Shown: piece after piece, positions 24,672-64,000 of the stretch
How the letters are laid out: the number at the start of each line of letters is the position of its first letter
Position numbering within the stretch: position 1 is the first letter of the stretch
IMG/VR virus record: IMGVR_UViG_3300033121_001921
Coordinates: 16,537-80,536 of that record
Source: a virus
Taxonomy: Duplodnaviria; Caudoviricetes
Length of the DNA: 64,000 nt
Reading direction: 5' to 3' (one strand)
Made by a program: the position numbers and the translations under genes
The notes under the pieces: generated by a model
What the model saw: the letters and a program-made list of their open reading frames with translations, nothing else
Told to the model about the DNA's origin: nothing
Databases searched by the model: none

Positions 24672-25250
24672 ATGAATCACATTAAAAAATTTGAATCTTG
24701 GGATAATGATGCTCCAGTATTCAATTTTGATCAAACATTTCATGTTGTTGGCAGAAATGAAATATCTAGCTGGTGGGATTGTCTATCATGTGATAATATA
24801 TGGGAAAATTTTAATAAAATAGATCCATCAGAATGTCCAAAATGCTCTTCAAAAGAAATTGAAGAAATAGAATCTGGTGAAGAAGATGACTTACTAGATT
24901 TATATAGTCTTAAGAAAGCCTATGAAAATCTGAATCCAGAATCGCACCAAGAAGTTATAAATGAAGTTAAGTCACTAATTGAATCAACAATTGAAAAGTC
25001 TGGAGGTGAATTTTCAACTTTTGTGGAGTCTATGGTAAAGGAACCAGAAAAATTCAAAATTGAAGGACTTATCAATGATTCCGACATATATGATTTCTAT
25101 CTAAAATATAGAAATGATATAGATGAGATATTAAATGATGTGAAGTTCTATGATGAGGTTCCATCTGAAATAAATGTTTTTGGTCTATACGATTATATAA
25201 TTACGGGAACGAATAGAGCCGTTCAAGAGGTTGTCAAGATGATCAAGTAA
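24672..25250 (+). CDS. hypothetical protein with CTS-like start and Zn ribbon
   Basis: MNHIKKFESW; CLSC...CPKC. Confidence 0.75.
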   Translation: MNHIKKFESWDNDAPVFNFDQTFHVVGRNEISSWWDCLSCDNIWENFNKIDPSECPKCSSKEIEEIESGEEDDLLDLYSLKKAYENLNPESHQEVINEVKSLIESTIEKSGGEFSTFVESMVKEPEKFKIEGLINDSDIYDFYLKYRNDIDEILNDVKFYDEVPSEINVFGLYDYIITGTNRAVQEVVKMIK

Positions 25251-25617
25251 GAGTTATGCAAATTAGCATTTCCGCATATTGTCTTTTAATTCTTAGTCCA
25301 TCATATTCAATCTTTGATACCGATTCATAAATTAATTTATAAATCTTAGATTCGTCTTCTAAAAACTTATAATACTCTTCAAGATCTTCGGGATTTCTAA
25401 CATCTTTACTAACTTCTTTACCTAGGGTCACAACAACAAGAAATTGATTACTCATTCTATGATTATCAAAGTATCCGAAAAGGCCTTGATACACTTTATA
25501 AATTTCTTTAGAGTAGTAAAATTTGATTTGATTTTCATCAGAAATATTTAAAAACGCAAGCTTTATATCATCCAATCTATCATCAATTGAAGATTCATTG
25601 AATCTACTAATTTTCAT
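25243..25617 (-). CDS. hypothetical protein with CTS-like start
   Basis: MKISRFNESS; shares a palindromic TATATATA with the divergent gene. Confidence 0.7.
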   Translation of the reverse strand: MKISRFNESSIDDRLDDIKLAFLNISDENQIKFYYSKEIYKVYQGLFGYFDNHRMSNQFLVVVTLGKEVSKDVRNPEDLEEYYKFLEDESKIYKLIYESVSKIEYDGLRIKRQYAEMLICITLT

Positions 25618-55491: not shown

Positions 55492-55545
55492 ACATAACGT
55501 CCGATGATAAACAATCGTTTTAATGTTGTTTATCATTTGTTATGT
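55492..55545 (+). repeat. hairpin H1 (near-identical to H14)
   Basis: acataac-gtccg-atgataaacaa/ttgtttatcat-tt-gttatgt. Confidence 0.9.
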
Positions 55546-55625
55546 GTAGGTGTGGATTATTAAGGTAGAATGTTTAATCGAAGAACTGAACAAAAATTTT
55601 AAAAGAAAAAGAAGGGTGAGAAGTT

Positions 55626-55907
55626 TTAATTCTTAAAGATTAATGAAAAATCATAGTTATCATATCCTTCTACAATTCTTATTTTTACACCTGTTATATG
55701 TCCGAATGAGCCATACCCAAATTCTTTACCTGTTGATTTTGTTATTTGTCTCCATTCAGTTTTGGAAATATTGTGAATAGGTATATCCTTACCTAAAATA
55801 TCTTCCATCTCCTTTAATGATTTTTCATAGTGTTCATCTTTTGGTTTCCCTATAATTAATCCAGGAAACATATTTTTGCTGTGAATTTCTTCAATTCTTA
55901 TTTTCAT
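55626..55907 (-). CDS. cassette hypothetical protein
   Basis: 93 aa ORF. Confidence 0.65.
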   Translation of the reverse strand: MKIRIEEIHSKNMFPGLIIGKPKDEHYEKSLKEMEDILGKDIPIHNISKTEWRQITKSTGKEFGYGSFGHITGVKIRIVEGYDNYDFSLIFKN

Positions 55908-55954
55908 AATTTTTTATTTTTAAAGATTTCTTTTCAATGTCTTTAAGTTCGTCT

Positions 55955-56080
55955 TTACCTCTTCCAAATTGTTACTACTTCAATAACACCACCACTCTTA
56001 ATATCGGTGTTTATACTTTCGTTTAAGAATTGTCCAAAATTCTTAACTTTATTTATTTGTTCTCTCATTTCTTTACTCAT
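55955..56080 (-). CDS. 41 aa ORF MSKEMREQINKVKNFGQFLNES..., starting in the H2 loop
   Basis: Hand translation; CTS-like KNFGQFLNES. Confidence 0.5.
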   Translation of the reverse strand: MSKEMREQINKVKNFGQFLNESINTDIKSGGVIEVVTIWKR

Positions 56081-56159
56081 AATTTTACTTTACTATCAAG
56101 TTTAGTGGTAAATTGAAAGTTCATCAAAGCAAACCTTCTCATACACCCAACCGTTATGT
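55996..56159 (-). repeat. hairpin H2 (left arm and loop like H7; right arm degenerate)
   Basis: acataac-ggttg-ggtgtatgagaaggtttgct on minus; GTT box apparently ATT. Confidence 0.65.
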
Positions 56160-56176
56160 GTAATAAAAAATAATTA

Positions 56177-56539
56177 TTATCCACTAAATGAAGCATCTCT
56201 ATCAGATACCATCCAACCATTGAGCATACTGGCTGGTCCATATATTCTCAAATTTTTAATGCTTGTTTTTTCTAAATGTTTTTTAATAGAATATAAAAGA
56301 TTTTTCACATTAGCTCTGCGAATACCATTATTAGATTCAGTTCTTAAAAGTTCTAATTTAGCAACTGAACTTGCTTTAAGTCCAAAATTAGTTTTATCTA
56401 TTATTGATTCCAAATAATCTAACATTTCATCATTAGAACCATTTTTTATTAAATTATCTATTTCTTTAATATATTTACGGTTTAGTGTTTTCCTAATTAA
56501 AGATTCATTAAGTTCATCAAATCTTTTGATATGTTTCAT
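56177..56539 (-). CDS. cassette protein with CTS-like start
   Basis: MKHIKRFDELNES. Confidence 0.75.
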   Translation of the reverse strand: MKHIKRFDELNESLIRKTLNRKYIKEIDNLIKNGSNDEMLDYLESIIDKTNFGLKASSVAKLELLRTESNNGIRRANVKNLLYSIKKHLEKTSIKNLRIYGPASMLNGWMVSDRDASFSG

Positions 56540-56564
56540 ATTGTATTAATTATTTTTTAATAAC

Positions 56565-56665
56565 ACATAACAAGGTGTATATGTAAGTTTTTTATTAGTT
56601 TTTTATTAGTGTATATATTAAAAAAAAATGTGAAAAAAACCTACATATACACCCAACCGTTATAG
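56565..56665 (-). repeat. hairpin H3 (loop contains AATATATAC)
   Basis: ggtgtatatgtaggttttt/aaaaacttacatatacacc stem. Confidence 0.9.
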
Positions 56666-56712
56666 GTAATTGTTTTAAAAATTCCCACACTCCTTAACAA
56701 TTTTCTTATTAA

Positions 56713-56868
56713 TTAACCTTGTTTATATTCTTGCAATACATACGGTAAATTCATTGAACTTACTCTGTTTTTGCTTTCATAAATAAATTGCCCGTGTTCG
56801 TTTTTTACGGCATCAATTTCTTTACAAAATTCTAATTCGTCTTTAATTAATTCGGTCATTGCATCCAT
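56713..56868 (-). CDS. small cassette protein MDAMTELIKDEL...
   Basis: Hand translation, 51 aa; possible 1-nt deletion at the 3' end. Confidence 0.55.
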   Translation of the reverse strand: MDAMTELIKDELEFCKEIDAVKNEHGQFIYESKNRVSSMNLPYVLQEYKQG

Positions 56869-56913
56869 TTTATTTAAGTTTAATTTACCAACGCTAATTT
56901 TTAAAACAACTAC

Positions 56914-57041
56914 CTATAACATAGTGTATATGTAATGTGAGGTTCAGTTGTATATTCAAAGTTTATATTTCTAATCAACATTTGTGGTTAAGTCAAGTTT
57001 CGTGTTTCAAATCTCACACTACATATACACAATCGTTCTGC
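56914..57041 (-). repeat. hairpin H4 (near-identical to H10, inverted)
   Basis: gtgtatatgtagtgtgag/ctcacattacatatacac stem. Confidence 0.9.
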
Positions 57042-57045
57042 GCAA

Positions 57046-57347
57046 TCATGAAACGAACAGCCGAACGGTCACAGGGCCTTCGCGGAAGTCGCCAGTGATT
57101 GTGCCGTCCACGTATTGCTCGTCACCCTTGCGGAAGTTCTTCCACTTCCATGGGAGCGGCGTTGCATCGTAATCGCCTTGACCAAGGCCAACGGCAGCAT
57201 TGAGCAGGTGCTGCCTGCCGTGAAGCCTTTGGCCTCAGCCCACGCCTGGGCCGCGTAGTATGCCTCCCATGTTCCCTTGTTATCGAACGTGGCCTGCTCC
57301 ACCACTGGCTTATTGACCCTGACCGTTCCACCTATTCGCTTTCGCAT
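57046..57347 (-). CDS. GC-rich (about 61%) cassette gene with a 1-nt frameshift at about 57178
   Basis: MRKRIGGTV...LALVK/GDYDATPLPWKWKNF...GPVTVRLFVS*. Confidence 0.7.
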
Positions 57348-57381
57348 TATTGTTGAGTTTTGAGTGAGTTGAAAAGACCGC

Positions 57382-57459
57382 GCAGAACATGCAGCTATGC
57401 GGCATGCCTCAACACAGGTCCAACGCGCTGCACGCCGCATAGCTGCTGAACCGTTATAT
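57382..57459 (-). repeat. hairpin H5 (GC-rich)
   Basis: gcagctatgcggc/gccgcatagctgc perfect 13-bp stem. Confidence 0.9.
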
Positions 57460-57537
57460 TCAATTAAACAAAAAATTATGAGTTTTTAATTGCTTCTAAT
57501 ATTTGTTGTTATATTTAGTAAAAATTAATTTATACCT

Positions 57538-57712: not shown

Positions 57713-57847
57713 ATATAACGGTTCTCAGATATATTTAGGTTTTCATTTTAATATATACACTAAAATAACAAAAGAAGATGAAACTTTTAAAAACACAAAA
57801 ACAGTTGAACGAAGCATCGGAAAACTTGAATATATCTGATGTTAGTG
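57713..57847 (+). repeat. hairpin H6 (loop holds AATATATAC and an ATG)
   Basis: tcagatatatttaggtttt/aaaacttgaatatatctga stem. Confidence 0.9.
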
Positions 57848-58119
57848 AGAGTAAAAAATTAGACAAAACTCTATCAAACCCCGAGTTCGATAATCTTATC
57901 GATAAATTATCTGAGATGGGTGTATCACATGATGACGTAGAAAAGTTTAAAGAGTATTCAATCGAATTTGAGAACGAAAATGATGAATATGAAAAGAAGG
58001 CGATTTTAGATACATTCTCATTAGATATATCAATGGATTATGAAAGTTTATACGATGAAGTGGAAGATGATATATCAGACTTATATTATGAGACAGGATT
58101 AGACCCTATGGAGTTTTAA
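57778..58119 (+). CDS. acidic cassette protein starting inside H6
   Basis: MKLLKTQKQLNEASENLNISD|V; GTT is in frame. Confidence 0.75.
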   Translation: MKLLKTQKQLNEASENLNISDVSESKKLDKTLSNPEFDNLIDKLSEMGVSHDDVEKFKEYSIEFENENDEYEKKAILDTFSLDISMDYESLYDEVEDDISDLYYETGLDPMEF

Positions 58120-58130
58120 TTTTTTATTCT

Positions 58131-58225
58131 TACTAACGTTTGGGTGTATGAGAAGGTTTGCTTTGATGAACTTTCAAAATCACCACTAAACTTGATAGCA
58201 AACTTTCTTATACACCTTGTTATAT
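58131..58225 (+). repeat. hairpin H7
   Basis: ggtgtatgagaaggtttgct/agcaaactttcttatacacc stem. Confidence 0.9.
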
Positions 58226-58343
58226 GCTGTGCGGATTTAACCACTAAACTACCTACGAAGAACAGAACCTTTTTGTTTTATTTTTGTGGGTGGAAAATTA
58301 AAATTTGAATATTTATATATATATAATAAAACTATTTAATAGT

Positions 58344-58799
58344 ATGGAATTAAGAAAATTTATAGCAACTACTATACGTGAATATTTGAATGAAAGTCAA
58401 ATCGAACAAATTAGAAATACTGGGCTATCAGTTAGTAATAAAATTGAAGGTGGCTTTTTAACTAAAAAAGAAGTTGATGAACTTCAAAGAGAAATTGAAT
58501 CAAATTATGATACAACACCTAAATTTGGACAAGATAGTAATGACATAAGAAAACGTTTGTATAATTATGATAATCCTTATGCAGAAAAAGATATTAATGG
58601 TGTTAATTTAAGAATAGTACAAGGTTTGATAGAGGGTGAGCCATATTCTGGTAATAGAAGAAAAACTTGGTTATTATATGCTGATGGTAAAATTGTTGGT
58701 AAATTTTATAAAGTGGATGATATTAAAAAAGTTATTAAACATATTGAAGATAATTTAGTTAAATCAATATCTAATAATCCAAAAGAATTGGGTGGGTAA
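58344..58799 (+). CDS. cassette protein with CTS-like start
   Basis: MELRKFIATTIREYLNES, behind a TATATATA tract. Confidence 0.75.
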   Translation: MELRKFIATTIREYLNESQIEQIRNTGLSVSNKIEGGFLTKKEVDELQREIESNYDTTPKFGQDSNDIRKRLYNYDNPYAEKDINGVNLRIVQGLIEGEPYSGNRRKTWLLYADGKIVGKFYKVDDIKKVIKHIEDNLVKSISNNPKELGG

Positions 58800-58858
58800 A
58801 AATAAAACAAAAAGAATGTTACGATGAAACTTAATATGAAGTACCAATGTAGCATTGC

Positions 58859-58988
58859 ATATAACGGCTGCGTGTATGAAACGTAATGGATTAGATGCAC
58901 TAAACTTTAAACATAAAATGAACTATAATAGAAATATGAACTTTAAATATACCACTGAAACCATTATGTTTTATACACGATGTTAGCA
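58859..58988 (+). repeat. hairpin H8
   Basis: gtgtatgaaacgtaatgg/ccattatgttttatacac stem. Confidence 0.9.
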
Positions 58989-59077
58989 GTAGTACGGATT
59001 TAAACCACAAATGCTCAATCGAAGAACTGAACCTTTTTTTCTTTTCTTTTTGTGCGGTGGGAAAATAAAATTGAATA

Positions 59078-59875
59078 ATGGAACGAAATATAATTTATAA
59101 CGAAGATTGTAAGATTACCTTGAAAAAACTTCAAGATAAATCTATTGATGGTGTAATTACATCACCACCATATAATATAAATACTGAAAGAAGCGATTGT
59201 TATTACAATAACGGATATTCTGAATTGGATGGGTTAAGTGAAAATGATTATCTTGAAGTAAGAACTAATGAATTTAAAGAATTTTCAAGAGTGATAAATG
59301 ATACTGGTGTAATTTGCTATAACATATCTTATGCAAAAGAAAATCCAATACTACCAACATTGTTGGTTGCTAAAATTCACAATGAAACTGATTTAACTAT
59401 TGCGGATATTATTTGTTGGAAGAAACCAAATGCTATACCTTTTCAGACTTCACCAACTAAATTGAGTAGGATTACTGAATTGATTTATGTTTTTGTGAAG
59501 AAAGAGCATTTACACACATTCAAAACCAACAAGGAAGTAAGTAAGGTAAATAAAAAAACAGGTCAAAAGTTTTACAAAAACTATGTGAATTATATTGAAG
59601 CAAGAAACAATGACGGATACCAATGTCAATTGAAAGCATCATTTTCGCAAGATTTAGTAAATCAATTAATAAATATTTATTTTCCAAAAGGTAGTTTAAT
59701 TTACGAACCGTTTACTGGAATAGGGACTACACAATTAAGTTGTATTGAAAATGAATGTGATTACATTGGTAGTGAATTAGTAAAAGACCATTATGAAATT
59801 GCTTTAGAGAGGGTTAGAGAAAAAAGAAAAGAAAAAGAATTTAATCTAATAACTTCATTCGGAGATGGGATGTAG
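59078..59875 (+). CDS. N6/N4 DNA methyltransferase (beta-class motif order), solitary
   Basis: TSPPYN precedes YEPFTGIGTT. Confidence 0.9.
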   Translation: MERNIIYNEDCKITLKKLQDKSIDGVITSPPYNINTERSDCYYNNGYSELDGLSENDYLEVRTNEFKEFSRVINDTGVICYNISYAKENPILPTLLVAKIHNETDLTIADIICWKKPNAIPFQTSPTKLSRITELIYVFVKKEHLHTFKTNKEVSKVNKKTGQKFYKNYVNYIEARNNDGYQCQLKASFSQDLVNQLINIYFPKGSLIYEPFTGIGTTQLSCIENECDYIGSELVKDHYEIALERVREKRKEKEFNLITSFGDGM

Positions 59876-59881
59876 TATTAC

Positions 59882-59939
59882 TGCTAACGGACAGGCATTG
59901 CCGCCGTTGCATTTGAATGGCGGCAATGCAGTGTTAGGC
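59882..59939 (+). repeat. hairpin H9 (GC-rich)
   Basis: gcattgccgcc/ggcggcaatgc stem. Confidence 0.9.
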
Positions 59940-59971
59940 CACGTTCTTTTAACTTTCAAAAGCAAAAGGCA

Positions 59972-60235
59972 ATGAAGCGATTTCACGAAACCGCTGATGG
60001 CAAGTTCATTGAACTAAAGGACTTGACAGACGAGCACCTTGCCAACATCATAAAGATGATTGAACGCAAGGCCAAGGATGGCATTGATCTCGTGTTCGGC
60101 GGAGGACACGGTGATTACGAAGAAATGTGGGGTGATGTTGAACACCTGCATGGGCAGGAAGTCTTTGACCACTTCGGGTACGAGAAGTACAAGAAAGAGC
60201 AGCGTCGTCGTATTCGTCTTCGGAATGTGGCCTAA
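59972..60235 (+). CDS. cassette protein (about 48% GC); stop TAA lies inside the terminal TAAC box
   Basis: ELKDLTDEHLANII...; GCC TAA C. Confidence 0.75.
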   Translation: MKRFHETADGKFIELKDLTDEHLANIIKMIERKAKDGIDLVFGGGHGDYEEMWGDVEHLHGQEVFDHFGYEKYKKEQRRRIRLRNVA

Positions 60236-60358
60236 CGATTTGGTGTATATGTAGTGTGAGATTTGAAACACTAAACTTGACTGAACTACAAATGTTGATT
60301 AGAATGATGAACTTGAATATACCACTGAACCTCACATTACATATACACCTTGTTATGT
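60230..60358 (+). repeat. hairpin H10
   Basis: ggtgtatatgtagtgtgag/ctcacattacatatacacc stem. Confidence 0.9.
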
Positions 60359-60536
60359 GTAGGTGTGCTTATTTATCACCAACCTTCAATCGGAGAACTG
60401 AAAGAAAATTTTAGAAAAAAGAAGGGAGGGAAATTTTTAATAATTTTTAATCTTTGTGTCCTTAAATTTTTTATTTAAGAATTTTTTGTTATATTTGTAG
60501 AGTTGAATTAGTATTAATAACTAAATAAAAAATAAA

Positions 60537-61115
60537 ATGAATATAAATGAATTAACAAACCCAATAAAAGTGTGTGATTTATCATTAAACGAAAATGACA
60601 ATGATAGAGCATTGTGGAATATAACATGGAACAGAGATGTTGATAACACAATCCTTTCACAGAAAAATGGTAGATGTTATTATATTGTTGTTAATGGTGA
60701 AATATTCAAGATAGGATATTCAGATTGTGATGGTGGTATAAAATCAACCATAGGCTCATATAGAAGTTCTGGTAATTCCGGGAGACCTTCTGATAGAACA
60801 CATGGTATTCATGTTTTAATAGCGGAGCAATTATTATTAGGCAATAAAGTTGAAATATACTTTCATTATAATCCACTTATAAATGTTAATTTAACACTTA
60901 TGGATGGTTCTGTTGTTTCAATAGAAAATTCAATTTCTGGTAAAATATTAGAATTAAAAAACATGGAAATATATAAAAATAAACATAATGATTTTCCTGT
61001 TTGGAATTTACAAGAGGCTGGAAAACCTTGGCCGACACACATACAAGAAAGTAGAAATAACTTATTATCGGGAAATCCTTTAAAATTAAATGAAATAAAA
61101 GAAAGATTATTTTAA
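60537..61115 (+). CDS. putative GIY-YIG restriction-type endonuclease (Hpy188I-like)
   Basis: GRCYYIVVNGEIFKIGYSD...IKSTIGSY...VEIYF pattern, recalled similarity only. Confidence 0.55.
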   Translation: MNINELTNPIKVCDLSLNENDNDRALWNITWNRDVDNTILSQKNGRCYYIVVNGEIFKIGYSDCDGGIKSTIGSYRSSGNSGRPSDRTHGIHVLIAEQLLLGNKVEIYFHYNPLINVNLTLMDGSVVSIENSISGKILELKNMEIYKNKHNDFPVWNLQEAGKPWPTHIQESRNNLLSGNPLKLNEIKERLF

Positions 61116-62011
61116 TCTTTCTTTTTAACTATTAATATTTCGTGTGATTTTTTAACTACTTCACTATTGTTCAATTCTATTCTATTCTTACCAATTCTTT
61201 TTTCACCATTACTCATAGAATAATTCCACTCTGGAAAATAAAAATCAAAATCTTTGTAGTATTCTCTTATTGTTTCACAATTATTATACGAAAGGACAAA
61301 ATCACCATTATGTGATAATAGTAAATCTCTTAATAATTCGTGATCAAAACCACTATGATGAACATCTATATTTTTCATCGGATACATACCTTTGTGCATT
61401 TTATTATCACTATCTTTATCTAAAAAATAAGGTGGGTCAAGATACAAAAAATCGTTTTTATGTTTTATTATAGATTTTTCAAATGGTAATTGTTCAACTT
61501 TTAGATTATCACATTTGAAATCTTTTATTTTATCTATCATAGATCTCCATTTTTTATCATTTAGATAAACACTTGAACCCCAACCTAAATAACCTGGACC
61601 ATAAGAACAATTGTGATTGAAATAATAATATGCTGCCAACTTTATATCATCCAACTTTATTATATTTTCTCTTTTGTAGTGATCAGTATTCCAATCTTTC
61701 AACATTTCTTGCGTCTTATCTAAACACATCAATATTTCTTTAATTCTAATATACTCACTATCTGTTGGTTGTATTTTTAATAACTCATTATACAATTCTT
61801 TTGGTTTGTTTAGTAATATATTCCAAAAATTAACAAGTACATCAAATACATCATATCCAACAACTTCTTTATTTAGGTTTCCTGACCAATGGACTTCAAG
61901 GGATCCACCACCAATAAAGGGAGATACTATTTTATCATATTTTTCAACAAATGGTGTTATCTGTTTAATGGCTTTACTTTTACCACCAGCATATCTTAAT
62001 AATGTTTTCAT
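61112..62011 (-). CDS. D12/Dam-class N6-adenine DNA methyltransferase
   Basis: LRYAGGKSK, SPFIGGGS, YLDPPY. Confidence 0.92.
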   Translation of the reverse strand: MKTLLRYAGGKSKAIKQITPFVEKYDKIVSPFIGGGSLEVHWSGNLNKEVVGYDVFDVLVNFWNILLNKPKELYNELLKIQPTDSEYIRIKEILMCLDKTQEMLKDWNTDHYKRENIIKLDDIKLAAYYYFNHNCSYGPGYLGWGSSVYLNDKKWRSMIDKIKDFKCDNLKVEQLPFEKSIIKHKNDFLYLDPPYFLDKDSDNKMHKGMYPMKNIDVHHSGFDHELLRDLLLSHNGDFVLSYNNCETIREYYKDFDFYFPEWNYSMSNGEKRIGKNRIELNNSEVVKKSHEILIVKKKD

Positions 62012-62137
62012 AAATAAATTTCTTTTTCTTTTATATATTAAATTCCAAAATTAGTTTTCTGTATTTTCTGTAAAATAAATAAAACTTTATGAAATAATTA
62101 ATATATAAATTATAGTAGAAAAATTAAAAATAGTTTG

Positions 62138-62287
62138 ATGAAAAAGAGACGAGATAAAGAATACTTTACATTAAATCCAGAAGTTAGAAAAGAATTTCTA
62201 AAACATATAGAGGAAAATAACCTAAATAAATCAAAGTTGATAGAAACTCTTATAGAGGAATATATGAAAAAAGTTAAAGAAAAATAA
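62138..62287 (+). CDS. 49 aa ribbon-helix-helix-like putative regulator
   Basis: MKKRRDKEYFTLNPEVRKEF...NKSKLIETLIEEYM, hand translation. Confidence 0.55.
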   Translation: MKKRRDKEYFTLNPEVRKEFLKHIEENNLNKSKLIETLIEEYMKKVKEK

Positions 62288-62395
62288 AAAAATTTCTTAT
62301 CTTTGTGTTCTTAAAAAATTATTAAAAATGTGCGGTGGGTTTTTTCTAAAATTTTCTAACACAAAAGTTGATTCGGAGGACAGAACCACACTTAC

Positions 62396-62584
62396 ACATA
62401 ACGGTAGGGCGGTTGGCGCAGTGCGTATTATTAACGATAAACTAAATTAGAATGAAAGCAGAAGATTTTTACAAACAACGAAGCAACTCAATAAGGGAGT
62501 TGTGGGCATTATCACCAAAGCAAATTGAATACATAGGTTTGATTATGGAAGAGTATGCAGCATTGCGCCAACCGCCTGTTAGCA
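62396..62584 (+). repeat. hairpin H11 (loop encodes the first part of an ORF)
   Basis: ggcggttggcgcagtgc/gcattgcgccaaccgcc stem. Confidence 0.9.
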
Positions 62585-62676
62585 GCAGTTTTTCATCTGA
62601 AAGCGACCATATTTGTATGATGTACTTAGATAAGCAAAGAACTTGTATGGTTTGCGGTAAACAAAATTGCTGCTAA
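62452..62676 (+). CDS. 74 aa protein spanning H11 and a 100-bp cassette
   Basis: ...ALRQPP|VSSS...CMVCGKQNCC, stop in TAAC. Confidence 0.7.
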   Translation: MKAEDFYKQRSNSIRELWALSPKQIEYIGLIMEEYAALRQPPVSSSFSSESDHICMMYLDKQRTCMVCGKQNCC

Positions 62677-62791
62677 CGTTTTGCGTATATACGCAGTGCA
62701 ACCGAAAACTTTATTTGAAACACAAAAATTGAAATTATGATAAAAAATTTGATTGAAAAACTGAAAGCATTGCGTATATACGCTGTTATAA
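62671..62791 (+). repeat. hairpin H12 (ATG in loop)
   Basis: gcgtatatacgcagtgc/gcattgcgtatatacgc stem. Confidence 0.9.
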
Positions 62792-62991
62792 GCCGTTTTT
62801 TATTTCCATACAAAACTTGGATTGAAATGAGAGAAAAATCTAAAGACGAGTATGGAGAAAAATTATGCTACTGTGGACATACCTATAAATGCACTTGTTC
62901 CAATCCAGATAAAACTTTGTTTAAGGAAAGTATAAAACGTGGTAGTATAATTTTATGGGATAAAGAGAACGGTTGGAAAAATGGCTTATAA
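62737..62991 (+). CDS. 84 aa protein starting inside H12
   Basis: MIKNLIEKLKALRIYA|VISR...CYCGHTYKCTC, stop in TAAC. Confidence 0.72.
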   Translation: MIKNLIEKLKALRIYAVISRFLFPYKTWIEMREKSKDEYGEKLCYCGHTYKCTCSNPDKTLFKESIKRGSIILWDKENGWKNGL

Positions 62992-63116
62992 CGGCTGACG
63001 CTATACGAAGGTGGGGATTAAGATGCACAACCCTTGCTTACCGCACAAAAGCAAATTAGATGCACAACTGTACAATTTTGGCACACAGCCCCACTTTTGT
63101 ATAGCGTATGTTATAG
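62986..63116 (+). repeat. hairpin H13
   Basis: acgctatacgaaggtgggg/ccccacttttgtatagcgt stem. Confidence 0.9.
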
Positions 63117-63134
63117 GCTGTTAAAAAGAATTTT

Positions 63135-63386
63135 ATGACAACTGTTAAAGAACTTAGAGAATTACTCGCAACAATGCCTGATGATTATGAAGTGGTTATT
63201 TATCCGAAATATTCATCCGATAAAGTTGATGGATATAGAAAGCACAGATTTAGAATTGACCAAGTTTGTGAACAAGAACCGTATGCTGTATCAATTAAAG
63301 ACGATGCTGAAAAATTAAAAACTTATTTCGGGAGTAAAGATTATGAAGAATATGAGGTAAATAACCACGTAGCTATTCTTTTTTAA
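63135..63386 (+). CDS. cassette hypothetical protein
   Basis: MTTVKELRELLATMPDDYEV. Confidence 0.75.
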   Translation: MTTVKELRELLATMPDDYEVVIYPKYSSDKVDGYRKHRFRIDQVCEQEPYAVSIKDDAEKLKTYFGSKDYEEYEVNNHVAILF

Positions 63387-63390
63387 TTGC

Positions 63391-63444
63391 CTATAACGTC
63401 TGATGATAAACAATCGTTTTAATGTTGTTTATCATTTGTTATAT
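63391..63444 (+). repeat. hairpin H14 (near-identical to H1)
   Basis: atgataaacaa/ttgtttatcat stem. Confidence 0.9.
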
Positions 63445-63477
63445 TTTAGTATCAAAAATTTTATACAAATTAAAAAT

Positions 63478-63849
63478 ATGAAAAAAGAAAAAGCGGAAAA
63501 GGAAATAAAACAACTATTAGATAGTGGTTTAAGTTTTGATTACAAAATTGATATGAATATCATAAATAAACAAATGTTCTGTATTGAACGGGAAGGATTT
63601 TCTATGGGCGATATTATATCAAAACTTAAAGAAGGTGAGAAAATTTTGTTCTATCTTAACGATGGTTATAGATCAGATTGGGATGATAAGAAAGGATATT
63701 CACCTCTTTATCAAATAAAAGATAGAGAAGGAAGTATCTATTGGAAACATGACACTTATGGAGAGTGTGTTCGTATAGATAGTGATATGGGTTCAATCAG
63801 AGAATGGTGTAACGAATTAAACGAAATTTATAGTATAAAAAATTCATAA
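63478..63849 (+). CDS. cassette hypothetical protein
   Basis: Start set at MKKEKAEKEI. Confidence 0.7.
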   Translation: MKKEKAEKEIKQLLDSGLSFDYKIDMNIINKQMFCIEREGFSMGDIISKLKEGEKILFYLNDGYRSDWDDKKGYSPLYQIKDREGSIYWKHDTYGECVRIDSDMGSIREWCNELNEIYSIKNS

Positions 63850-63864
63850 AATTTTTGATATTGA

Positions 63865-63995
63865 ATATAACGGTTGCAGATATACTCAATTTGGGATTAA
63901 ATAGTAGAAACTTTAAAATTAAGATAAAATGAATAAAGAGAAACAAGAGTGGGATAAACATCTAACACCCAAATTGGGTATATCTGATGTTATGC
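63865..63995 (+). repeat. hairpin H15 (ATG in loop)
   Basis: cagatatactcaatttggg/cccaaattgggtatatctg stem. Confidence 0.9.
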
Positions 63996-64000
63996 AACGT
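63929..64000 (+). CDS. partial ORF starting inside H15
   Basis: MNKEKQEWDKHLTPKLGISD|VMQR, GTT in frame. Confidence 0.6.
   Translation, partial: MNKEKQEWDKHLTPKLGISDVMQR

What the first reader, a model, noticed from the sequence alone, without database searches (positions are those of the whole stretch)
57713..64000. ORFs start inside the hairpin loop and read in frame through the stem and the GTT box
Seen in four of four intact cases: ATG 57778 to GTT 57841 (21 codons), 62452 to 62578 (42), 62737 to 62785 (16), 63929 to 63989 (20). GTT is always the Val codon and the stem is translated as LNISD-V, ALRQPP-V, ALRIYA-V, LGISD-V. Three ORFs stop at the TAA of the terminal TAAC (60235, 62676, 62991). 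Inference: the recombination site doubles as promoter, start and N-terminal peptide; a fixed frame at GTT means any exchange there yields in-frame chimeric proteins (combinatorial leader-body shuffling).
Basis: partly seen in the sequence, partly recalled or inferred. Interest (0 to 1): 0.8.

Follow-up and report, generated by a model that had tools for sequence, protein, structure and literature searches.

The report
Genes starting inside phage integron hairpins
In this jumbo phage's integron-like gene-cassette array, many small genes begin inside the folded DNA recombination site in front of them, so the stem is translated as a reusable N-terminal leader.

Summary
All four ORFs start at an ATG in a hairpin loop and read through the 3' stem arm and the GTT box with GTT as Val. 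Three ORFs stop at the TAA of the next TAAC.

It also generalises. I collected 389 such sites from 76 related IMG/VR phage loci. Among 150 long hairpins with an ORF open from GTT, 81% have an in-frame loop ATG. The controls give 19% (the other two frames) and 8% (the reverse strand).

The proposed mechanism is only partly right.
- Homology breakpoints, a conserved attI-like end site next to a Xer/IntI-like recombinase, and GC content all place the crossover at TAAC, upstream of the hairpin, not at GTT.
- Leader and body therefore belong to one mobile cassette. This is an integron layout with the genes inverted, so the attC-like site sits 5' of its gene.
- The frame at GTT is not fixed: 74% GTT=Val, 22% nnG-TTA, 3% nGT-TAn.
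- The same leader families do sit on many unrelated bodies, with the junction exactly at GTT. A few bodies carry different leaders. Leader-body reassortment therefore happens over evolutionary time, by an unknown route.

This scan has already noted the same system on other DNA (for example e1-5870981). I found no paper describing it.

The parts
57716..57844 (+). Hairpin recombination site (TAAC ... GTTA, about 20-bp stem). The loop holds TAATATATA at 57749 and the start codon at 57778.
57778..58119 (+). 113-aa ORF. The leader (21 codons) is encoded by the loop and the 3' arm, GTT at 57841 reads as Val, and the body follows.
   Evidence: Homologues of the body carry at least 4 leader types, and the same leader sits on 4 other bodies.
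62399..62581 (+). Long hairpin site (179 nt) with a loop ATG at 62452.
62452..62676 (+). 74-aa ORF. 42 codons lie inside the hairpin, GTT is at 62578, and the stop is the TAA of the next TAAC.
62674..62788 (+). Hairpin site with a loop ATG at 62737. The loop carries the TTGAAACAC motif.
62737..62991 (+). 84-aa Cys-rich ORF. It has 16 leader codons, GTT at 62785, and its stop is the TAA of TAAC at 62989.
   Evidence: The L015 homologue keeps the same body and an in-frame but different leader. 43 database homologues have varied N-termini.
63868..63992 (+). Hairpin site with a loop ATG at 63929.
63929..64000 (+). ORF start (20 leader codons, GTT at 63989). The body is cut off by the end of the contig.
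58134..58222 (+). Hairpin site without a loop ORF. The next gene starts after GTT, at 58344.
58862..58985 (+). Hairpin site without a loop ORF. The methyltransferase gene starts at 59078.
59885..59936 (+). Short GC-rich hairpin in front of the GC-rich gene 59972-60235.
60233..60355 (+). Hairpin site in front of a three-gene cassette (60537-62287). It holds only a short, probably spurious loop ORF.
62989..63113 (+). Hairpin site without a loop ORF. The gene starts at 63135.
63394..63441 (+). Short (44-nt) hairpin site. The gene starts at 63478.
55495..55542 (+). First site of the array (short hairpin, same family as 63394).

Best explanation
The region is the end of an integron-like cassette array of an uncultured jumbo phage, probably of Bacteroidota. 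In related phages the array ends at a conserved attI-like site directly upstream of a 267-aa Xer/IntI-like tyrosine recombinase. The window's contig stops before reaching it.

Each mobile cassette, read on the gene strand, is C + hairpin + GTT box + gene + matching box ending in TAA. The crossover lies in TAAC, at the 5' foot of the hairpin. This is the classical integron layout with the genes inverted, so each attC-like hairpin sits in front of its own gene.

In most long (about 120 nt) hairpins the loop carries the start codon and, at least in one family, the phage's gene-start motif. The ribosome then reads the 3' stem arm and the GTT box as the last 6-8 residues of a roughly 20-residue leader, continues into the body, and often stops at the TAA just before the next crossover. 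Leader and body travel as one unit.

Hairpin-plus-leader families are reused on unrelated bodies, with the junction exactly at GTT. The hairpin therefore acts as a portable 5' module (recombination site, start signal and leader) that is joined in frame to a gene when a cassette is made, or in rarer exchanges.

Shown: the ORF geometry, the cassette boundaries, and the reuse of leaders. Inferred: translation from the loop ATG, promoter activity in the loop, and how new junctions arise.
For: ORFs and hairpins.

Cassette boundaries:
- Five cassette pairs share the upstream hairpin (0.79-1.0 identity) and the body, while the downstream hairpin differs (0.21-0.67). Identity starts and stops at TAAC.
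- Arrays lie upstream of the recombinase and point the same way in the related loci.
- In 62/63 loci the last body ends with the reverse complement of its own GTT extension plus TAAC. In about 55 of these it is followed directly by TATnATATATA, 43-53 nt before the recombinase ATG.
- Hairpin GC correlates with the downstream body (r = 0.48, p = 3e-15) and not with the upstream body (r = 0.05).
- The gene strand folds better than its complement.

Translation from the loop ATG:
- 81% in-frame loop ATGs against 19% and 8% in the controls.
- In the loop part of the leaders, differences by codon position are 251/205/369, an excess at third positions.
- 19 of 21 GTT-ATG sites still keep an in-frame loop ATG.
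- Lipoprotein-type signal peptides span the stem and GTT box in frame 2.
- A homologue whose 3' arm has been lost keeps the leader through an in-frame deletion.
- The L015 homologue of the 84-aa body has no ATG between GTT and the conserved region, and uses a different in-frame leader.

Leader reuse.

Compactness: the stop is the TAA of TAAC in 33/102 cassettes and lies within 30 nt of it in 48 more.

TAATATATA occurs 15 times against 4.4 expected, mostly 4-27 nt before ORF starts, including the loop at 57749.
Against: - There is no direct evidence of translation or transcription start sites.
- The sites are related by descent, so the counts are not independent.
- My site finder is a heuristic (TAAC/GTTA plus arm pairing). 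It misses degenerate sites and made at least one wrong call (L055_1).
- The window's own contig lacks the recombinase.
- Some body homologues have very short N-termini, so the leader is not needed for the fold.
- About a quarter of frame-0 bodies have an ATG right after GTT that could serve as the real start.
Confidence: 0.8

Rival explanations
1. The crossover is at G|TT as in classical integron cassettes, so the leader belongs to the upstream cassette. Every cassette move then fuses a new leader to a body, with a fixed frame guaranteeing in-frame chimeras.
For: The sites look like attC sites written in the usual gene direction, with TAAC first and GTTA last. Hairpin-family conservation stops sharply right after GTTA. 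The same leaders are on different bodies. One body pair is joined to two different hairpin families exactly at GTT (L060/L075).
Against: Every informative cassette pair breaks at TAAC, and none of them keeps the downstream hairpin with the body. The attI-like end site follows a TAAC with no hairpin. Hairpin GC follows the downstream gene. The frames are 74/22/3%, so random pairing would often be out of frame. The sharp stop of conservation at GTT is the mirror image of the cassette-specific part of the inverse core site in classical integrons, so it needs no exchange there.
Confidence: 0.07
2. The loop ATGs are chance upstream extensions of ORFs in AT-rich DNA. Real starts lie after GTT and the stem is never translated.
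For: Some extensions are clearly spurious: the ATG in the arm of the 44-nt hairpins, including window 63403, and the short frame at 60256. About a quarter of frame-0 bodies start with ATG right after GTT. Gene callers sometimes start the 84-aa family at an internal Met.
Against: 81% against 19% and 8% in the controls. Third-position excess in the leaders. Many bodies have no ATG for dozens of codons after GTT, yet the stretch from GTT on is held open and conserved there. Signal peptides need the loop start. The leader is kept in frame after the hairpin has decayed.
Confidence: 0.08
3. The hairpins are regulatory promoter/terminator stem-loops of the kind that mediate homologous-recombination shuffling in T4-type phages (PeSLs), not site-specific recombination sites. 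The leaders are conserved because they are part of that regulatory module.
For: The phage has T4-like replication genes. The loops carry gene-start motifs. The same promoter-plus-leader module also occurs in front of genes that have no hairpin arms (L087). PeSLs are described in PMC2839356 and PMC4122927.
Against: The breakpoints are base-precise at a 4-5 nt box, not spread over the repeat. Each body carries its own matching inverted boxes. A tyrosine recombinase and a conserved end site flank the arrays in 60 or more loci. Stem sequences differ between families while the TAAC/GTTA boxes are invariant.
Confidence: 0.05

Closest known systems
Integron gene cassettes and attC sites (IntI, attI, cassette arrays)
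   Same: The sites are imperfect hairpins bounded by ...AAC and GTT... boxes. Each cassette has its own complementary boxes at its two ends. The arrays have one orientation, with a non-hairpin end site next to a tyrosine recombinase of the Xer/IntI group. Stop codons lie in the TAAC box. Read on the strand opposite the genes, the order recombinase, end site, cassettes and the position of the crossover match class 1 integrons.
   Different: The genes are inverted within the cassettes, so the hairpin is 5' of its gene and often contains the start codon and leader. The recombinase is short (267 aa) and scores below the integron-integrase cut-off. Unpaired bases lie on the crossover side. The host is a phage. 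In classical integrons the attC follows the gene and is not translated as an N-terminus.
ORF-11 in attI1 and fused or start-less cassettes (for example N-terminal variants of aacA4); review PMC8876359
   Same: A recombination site that carries translation signals and an ORF running across the crossover point, which can change the N-terminus or the translation of a cassette gene.
   Different: Those signals come from attI or from a neighbouring cassette and depend on position. Here the start and leader lie within the cassette's own site and move with the gene, and this is the norm for long hairpins rather than an exception.
Clusters of attC sites lacking an integrase (CALINs) reported in virulent phages, including a Polaribacter phage (Qi et al. 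2023, PMC9892861)
   Same: attC-type sites and cassettes, often carrying methyltransferases, in lytic phage genomes. The window also has two methyltransferase cassettes.
   Different: That paper treats them as bacterial integron parts carried by phages. It reports no phage recombinase, no inverted gene polarity and no gene starts inside the sites.
PeSL promoter/stem-loop cassettes of T4-type phages (PMC2839356, PMC4122927)
   Same: A conserved stem-loop plus promoter in front of small variable phage genes, associated with modular gene shuffling.
   Different: PeSLs act through homologous recombination and are intergenic. Here the junctions are site-specific, a recombinase is linked to the arrays, and the stem is coding.
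T4 internal-protein capsid-targeting leaders on variable bodies (from my own knowledge, not tested)
   Same: A short conserved N-terminal leader shared by unrelated small phage proteins.
   Different: There is no evidence here for packaging or cleavage. The last residues of the leader are dictated by DNA pairing: the stem is invariant at DNA level, and the Ser three residues after Val reflects a DNA-level (A/T)GT at +10 to +12 that is present whether or not the site is coding.

Membership tests
Integron (classical) | An IntI integrase that reaches the family threshold and carries the IntI-specific extra domain | tested here: not met
   The own contig has no match. The recombinase of related arrays scores 154-158 bits against a cut-off of 265 on TIGR02249, with the match split into two stretches. 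It is 265-267 aa long against a 315-position profile. Its best solved relatives are XerA-like proteins and the N-terminal half of VchIntIA.
Integron (classical) | attC-type sites: an imperfect inverted repeat with an inverse core ...AAC and a core GTT..., 50-150 nt long | tested here: met
   11 sites in the window and 389 in related loci, 34-309 nt long with a median of 113, with TAAC and GTTA boxes.
Integron (classical) | Cassettes are discrete units bounded at one box, with complementary core sequences at their two ends | tested here: met
   Breakpoints lie at TAAC on both sides. Matching 8-10 nt boxes occur on every body in the window and in 62/63 terminal bodies.
Integron (classical) | An attI-type site next to the integrase gene, where the array begins | tested here: met
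   A conserved TATnATATATA follows directly after the final TAAC, at a fixed 43-53 nt from the recombinase ATG. Its function has not been tested.
Integron (classical) | The gene lies upstream of its own attC and is transcribed away from the integrase end | tested here: not met
   The genes read towards the recombinase, and the hairpin that co-travels with a gene is the one 5' of it.
Integron (classical) | Single-strand folded substrate with extrahelical bases that direct the choice of strand | not testable with these tools
   The gene strand folds 3-4 kcal/mol better and shows a 4-5 nt bulge next to TAAC. Strand use needs an assay.
PeSL (T4-type phages) | Intergenic promoter plus terminator stem-loop, with exchange by homologous recombination in the repeat | tested here: not met
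   The stems are coding, the junctions are base-precise at TAAC, and a recombinase is linked.
Capsid-targeting or propeptide leaders | The leader is cleaved and directs the protein into the prohead | not tested
   There is only a shared N-terminal motif: 9 ORFs in the contig against 1.15 expected.

The most novel reading that the evidence does not exclude
The hairpin is a natural in-frame tagging site. New cassettes, or rare exchanges that use the opposite strand and cut at G|TT, would join any gene fragment to a ready-made module of recombination site, start signal and N-terminal leader. One leader family carries the K-[KR]-F-N-E-type N-terminus that many unrelated proteins of this phage share, so it may act as a functional address or propeptide, for example for packaging into the virion. 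On this reading the array would be a shuffled library of tagged effector proteins.
Probability: 0.2. Interest if true: 0.9.

Novelty: new variant of a known kind. Interest (0 to 1): 0.7.

Why it matters
Integron recombination sites are regarded as non-coding joints that follow their genes. Here a large family of uncultured phages uses the same kind of joint in front of the gene and translates it. The recombinase of that family has at least 226 relatives in IMG/VR.

One roughly 120-nt element is therefore a recombination site, a start signal and an N-terminal peptide at once, and the cassettes are coding almost from end to end.

This puts an unusual double constraint on one sequence, DNA pairing plus codons. 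It also offers a handle on how cassettes are born, an old open question, because the hairpin-gene junction is in frame and base-precise at GTT. It also shows how phages keep swappable accessory genes such as methyltransferases and small unknown proteins.

For annotation, gene callers and integron finders will mis-set both cassette boundaries and gene starts in these arrays.

Tried and rejected
- I started from the classical model, with the crossover at G|TT. I dropped it after the breakpoint, end-site and GC tests.
- Spacer asymmetry as a guide to the recombining strand gave the opposite answer to the comparative data, so I treat it as uninformative.
- Rfam found nothing relevant in 54-64 kb.
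- Pfam, NCBIfam and PHROGs gave no function for the four leader-bearing proteins, apart from one sub-threshold DUF7732 hit.
- No close recombinase homologue exists in deposited phage genomes. The best are below 40% identity, in Polaribacter and Cellulophaga phages.
- The nearest cellular homologues (50% identity or less, mostly Bacteroidota) show no co-oriented upstream arrays. There were 36 sites in 622 kb.
- A lipoprotein regular expression was too strict and flagged 2 cases. About 5 are visible by eye.
- One apparent counter-example to hairpin-body co-travel (L055_1 against WIN_9) was a mis-called site.
- Literature searches for a description of phage arrays with this polarity, or of starts inside attC, found none.
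Full report
**What the window is.** The window is the last 64 kb of an 80.5-kb IMG/VR viral contig that CheckV estimates at 28% complete. It encodes T4-type topoisomerase II subunits, a homing endonuclease, a GroEL and a peptidase, which fits a jumbo phage. GC content is about 30%.

From 55.5 kb to the contig end lies an array of hairpin sites written TAAC-arm-loop-arm-GTTA on the + strand. A segment at 55.6-57.45 kb carries cassettes in the opposite orientation. Every stretch between two sites starts with GTT plus 5-7 bases and ends with their reverse complement plus AAC. This is the classical hallmark of integron cassettes.

**Checking the observation.** All four stated ORFs exist with the stated geometry:

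| Loop ATG | GTT | Codons from ATG to GTT |
|---|---|---|
| 57778 | 57841 | 21 |
| 62452 | 62578 | 42 |
| 62737 | 62785 | 16 |
| 63929 | 63989 | 20 |

- GTT is read as Val in all four.
- The hairpins fold with 17-20-bp stems (z -2.8 to -3.9) and the ATGs lie in the loops.
- Three ORFs end at the TAA of the next TAAC.
- The window has 11 + strand sites. Four of the eight that are 85 nt or longer have no gene-length loop ORF (60233 holds only a short frame ending 20 codons past GTT), so 'four of four' is a selected subset.

**Enlarging the sample.**
- A pattern taken from the LNISDV-type hairpin found two more viral contigs. In both, the array runs into a 265-267-aa tyrosine recombinase on the same strand.
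- That recombinase has 226 relatives in IMG/VR. I fetched 80 loci.
- It is Xer/IntI-like but below every curated cut-off.
- It has no close relative among deposited phages or bacterial genomes.
- A simple site finder gave 389 sites in the arrays of 76 non-redundant loci. The arrays are always upstream of the recombinase and point the same way.

**Is the loop start more than chance?**
- Of 208 hairpins of 100 nt or more, 150 have a frame open for at least 30 codons from GTT.
- In 121 of these (81%) a loop ATG is open to GTT in that frame. The other two frames give 19% and the reverse strand gives 8%.
- Within hairpin families, differences in the loop-encoded part of the leader are 251/205/369 by codon position, while the stem part is almost invariant.
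- Several frame-2 leaders are lipoprotein-type signal peptides whose hydrophobic core spans the stem and the GTT box.
- A database homologue of the 113-aa protein has lost the 3' arm by an in-frame deletion yet keeps the leader.
- The L015 homologue of the 84-aa protein conserves the stretch directly after GTT, with mostly silent or conservative changes, and has no ATG there. It uses a different in-frame leader.
- I conclude that the leaders are very probably translated, but no expression data exist.

**Where is the crossover?** This decides the interpretation. If it were at G|TT, leader and body would belong to different cassettes. Four lines of evidence say it is in TAAC.
- Homologous bodies found in different contexts share the upstream hairpin (identity 0.79-1.0) but not the downstream one (0.21-0.67). 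Base-level identity begins and ends at TAAC.
- In 62 of 63 loci the last body ends with its own matching box plus TAAC. In about 55 of them it is followed directly, with no hairpin, by a conserved TATnATATATA at a fixed 43-53 nt from the recombinase start, which is an attI-like site.
- Hairpin GC correlates with the downstream body (r = 0.48) and not with the upstream one (r = 0.05). In the window, both GC-rich genes are preceded by GC-rich hairpins.
- The gene strand folds better than its complement.

Read on the opposite strand, the layout is that of a class 1 integron: recombinase, end site, cassettes, and a crossover at the G|TT of the far box. The difference is that every gene is inverted. 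The hairpin therefore belongs to the gene behind it, and the loop-started ORF lies entirely within one mobile unit.

**Frame at GTT.** Among the 121 loop-started ORFs, 90 read GTT as Val, 27 read nnG-TTA and 4 read nGT-TAn. Frame 1 is closed by TAG in the common GTTAG box. Frame 0 is preferred but is not a rule.

The frequent Ser three residues after Val reflects a DNA-level (A/T)GT at +10 to +12 that is also present at non-coding sites.

**Leaders and bodies.**
- Hairpin clusters of 10, 10 and 7 members sit on 10, 10 and 7 unrelated bodies.
- Conservation collapses right after GTTA.
- In the 5.8-billion-protein collection, the window's own leader type is joined to four other bodies. The 113-aa body occurs with at least four N-terminal types.
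- The 84-aa body family has many different N-termini, some very short.
- One body pair is joined to two different hairpin families exactly at GTT.
- Reassortment of leader and body at GTT has therefore happened repeatedly.
- I found no case of a body travelling with its downstream hairpin. This argues against GTT being a routine exchange point.
- How the junctions arise is open: cassette birth, rare opposite-strand recombination, or illegitimate joining.

**Promoter claim.**
- TAATATATA occurs 15 times in the window (4.4 expected), mostly 4-27 nt before ORF starts across the phage genome. One copy lies in the 57716 loop, 20 nt before the ATG.
- The same motif plus the same leader type precedes genes with no hairpin arms in another contig.
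- Other loops carry a TTGAAACAC-type motif that in the window occurs almost only in the array (3 of 4 copies).
- Promoter function is plausible but untested.

**Comparison with what is known.**
- Integrons are the closest system, and several defining features are met. The integrase criterion and the gene polarity are not met, so I file this as integron-like rather than as a member.
- attC clusters in lytic phages have been reported (PMC9892861), but without a phage recombinase, inverted polarity or coding hairpins.
- ORF-11 in attI1 is the nearest precedent for an ORF across a crossover point (PMC8876359).
- PeSLs are analogous in role but not in mechanism.
- Earlier notes of this scan describe the same system on other genomes, including the mirror-image polarity and starts inside the loop. 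I reached the same reading from my own tests.

**Verdict.**
- The site does double as a start signal and leader, and leaders are combinatorially distributed over bodies.
- Routine recombination takes place at the other foot of the hairpin.
- The frame is not fixed.

Noticed in passing
window 55600-57460: A block of 4-5 cassettes lies in the opposite orientation. Its right junction at 57447-57457 is a box that reads as GTTATATTC on the + strand and as a TAAC box on the - strand. This suggests an inversion between two oppositely oriented sites.
   Followed up: partly
window 55545-55620, 58225-58300, 58990-59065, 60360-60440, 62330-62395; also L058 and L061: A recurring motif set sits just after some hairpins, in cassettes whose genes start after GTT: ACGGATT-AACCAC, AATCGRAGAAC-GAAC, and a T-run followed by GTGNGGTGGG. 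It may be a promoter or UTR module. There is no Rfam match.
   Followed up: no
window, 15 sites, e.g. 5562, 28420, 33530, 35035, 37652, 51037: TAATATATA lies only 4-5 nt before the ATG of many phage genes. It may be a late-type promoter giving leaderless or near-leaderless mRNAs.
   Followed up: partly
window 60353-62578: One cassette holds three ORFs: 192 aa (+), a Dam-family methyltransferase (-, 61112-62011) and a 50-aa protein (+). It may be a restriction-modification or orphan-methylase module. A second methyltransferase cassette lies at 59078-59875.
   Followed up: partly
G000 contig; window 16726, 25243-25617(-), 53856, 54735, 55297, 56177-56539(-): The N-terminal motif M-x(2-8)-[KRSQ]-F-x-[ED] occurs in 9 of 175 ORFs against 1.15 expected from shuffles. 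The same motif is encoded in one hairpin leader family.
   Followed up: partly
L001 6561-6812 (- strand): A 248-nt hairpin whose loop contains a complete 69-aa ORF with a hydrophobic C-terminus. The ORF ends at the TGA inside the 3' arm, so loops can hold whole genes.
   Followed up: no
L005-L084, 43-53 nt upstream of the recombinase ATG: A conserved attI-like end site, TAAC followed by TATnATATATA, lies at a fixed distance from the recombinase gene.
   Followed up: yes
L011 302, L014 6499, L021 5284, L077 1547, L079 7597: Cassette ORFs in frame 2 encode lipoprotein-type signal peptides whose hydrophobic core is the translated stem arm plus the GTT box.
   Followed up: partly
L126 (Flavobacterium saccharophilum), L145 (Desulfitobacterium) and others: Some bacterial loci with distant homologues of the recombinase have 3-8 hairpin sites on the strand opposite the recombinase. 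These may be arrays of the other polarity.
   Followed up: no
L085 1000-1130; L087 400-830: Cassette genes occur with half-decayed or absent hairpin arms but with the promoter-like motif and the leader intact. These are either fossil cassettes or the ancestral form from which coding hairpins arose.
   Followed up: partly
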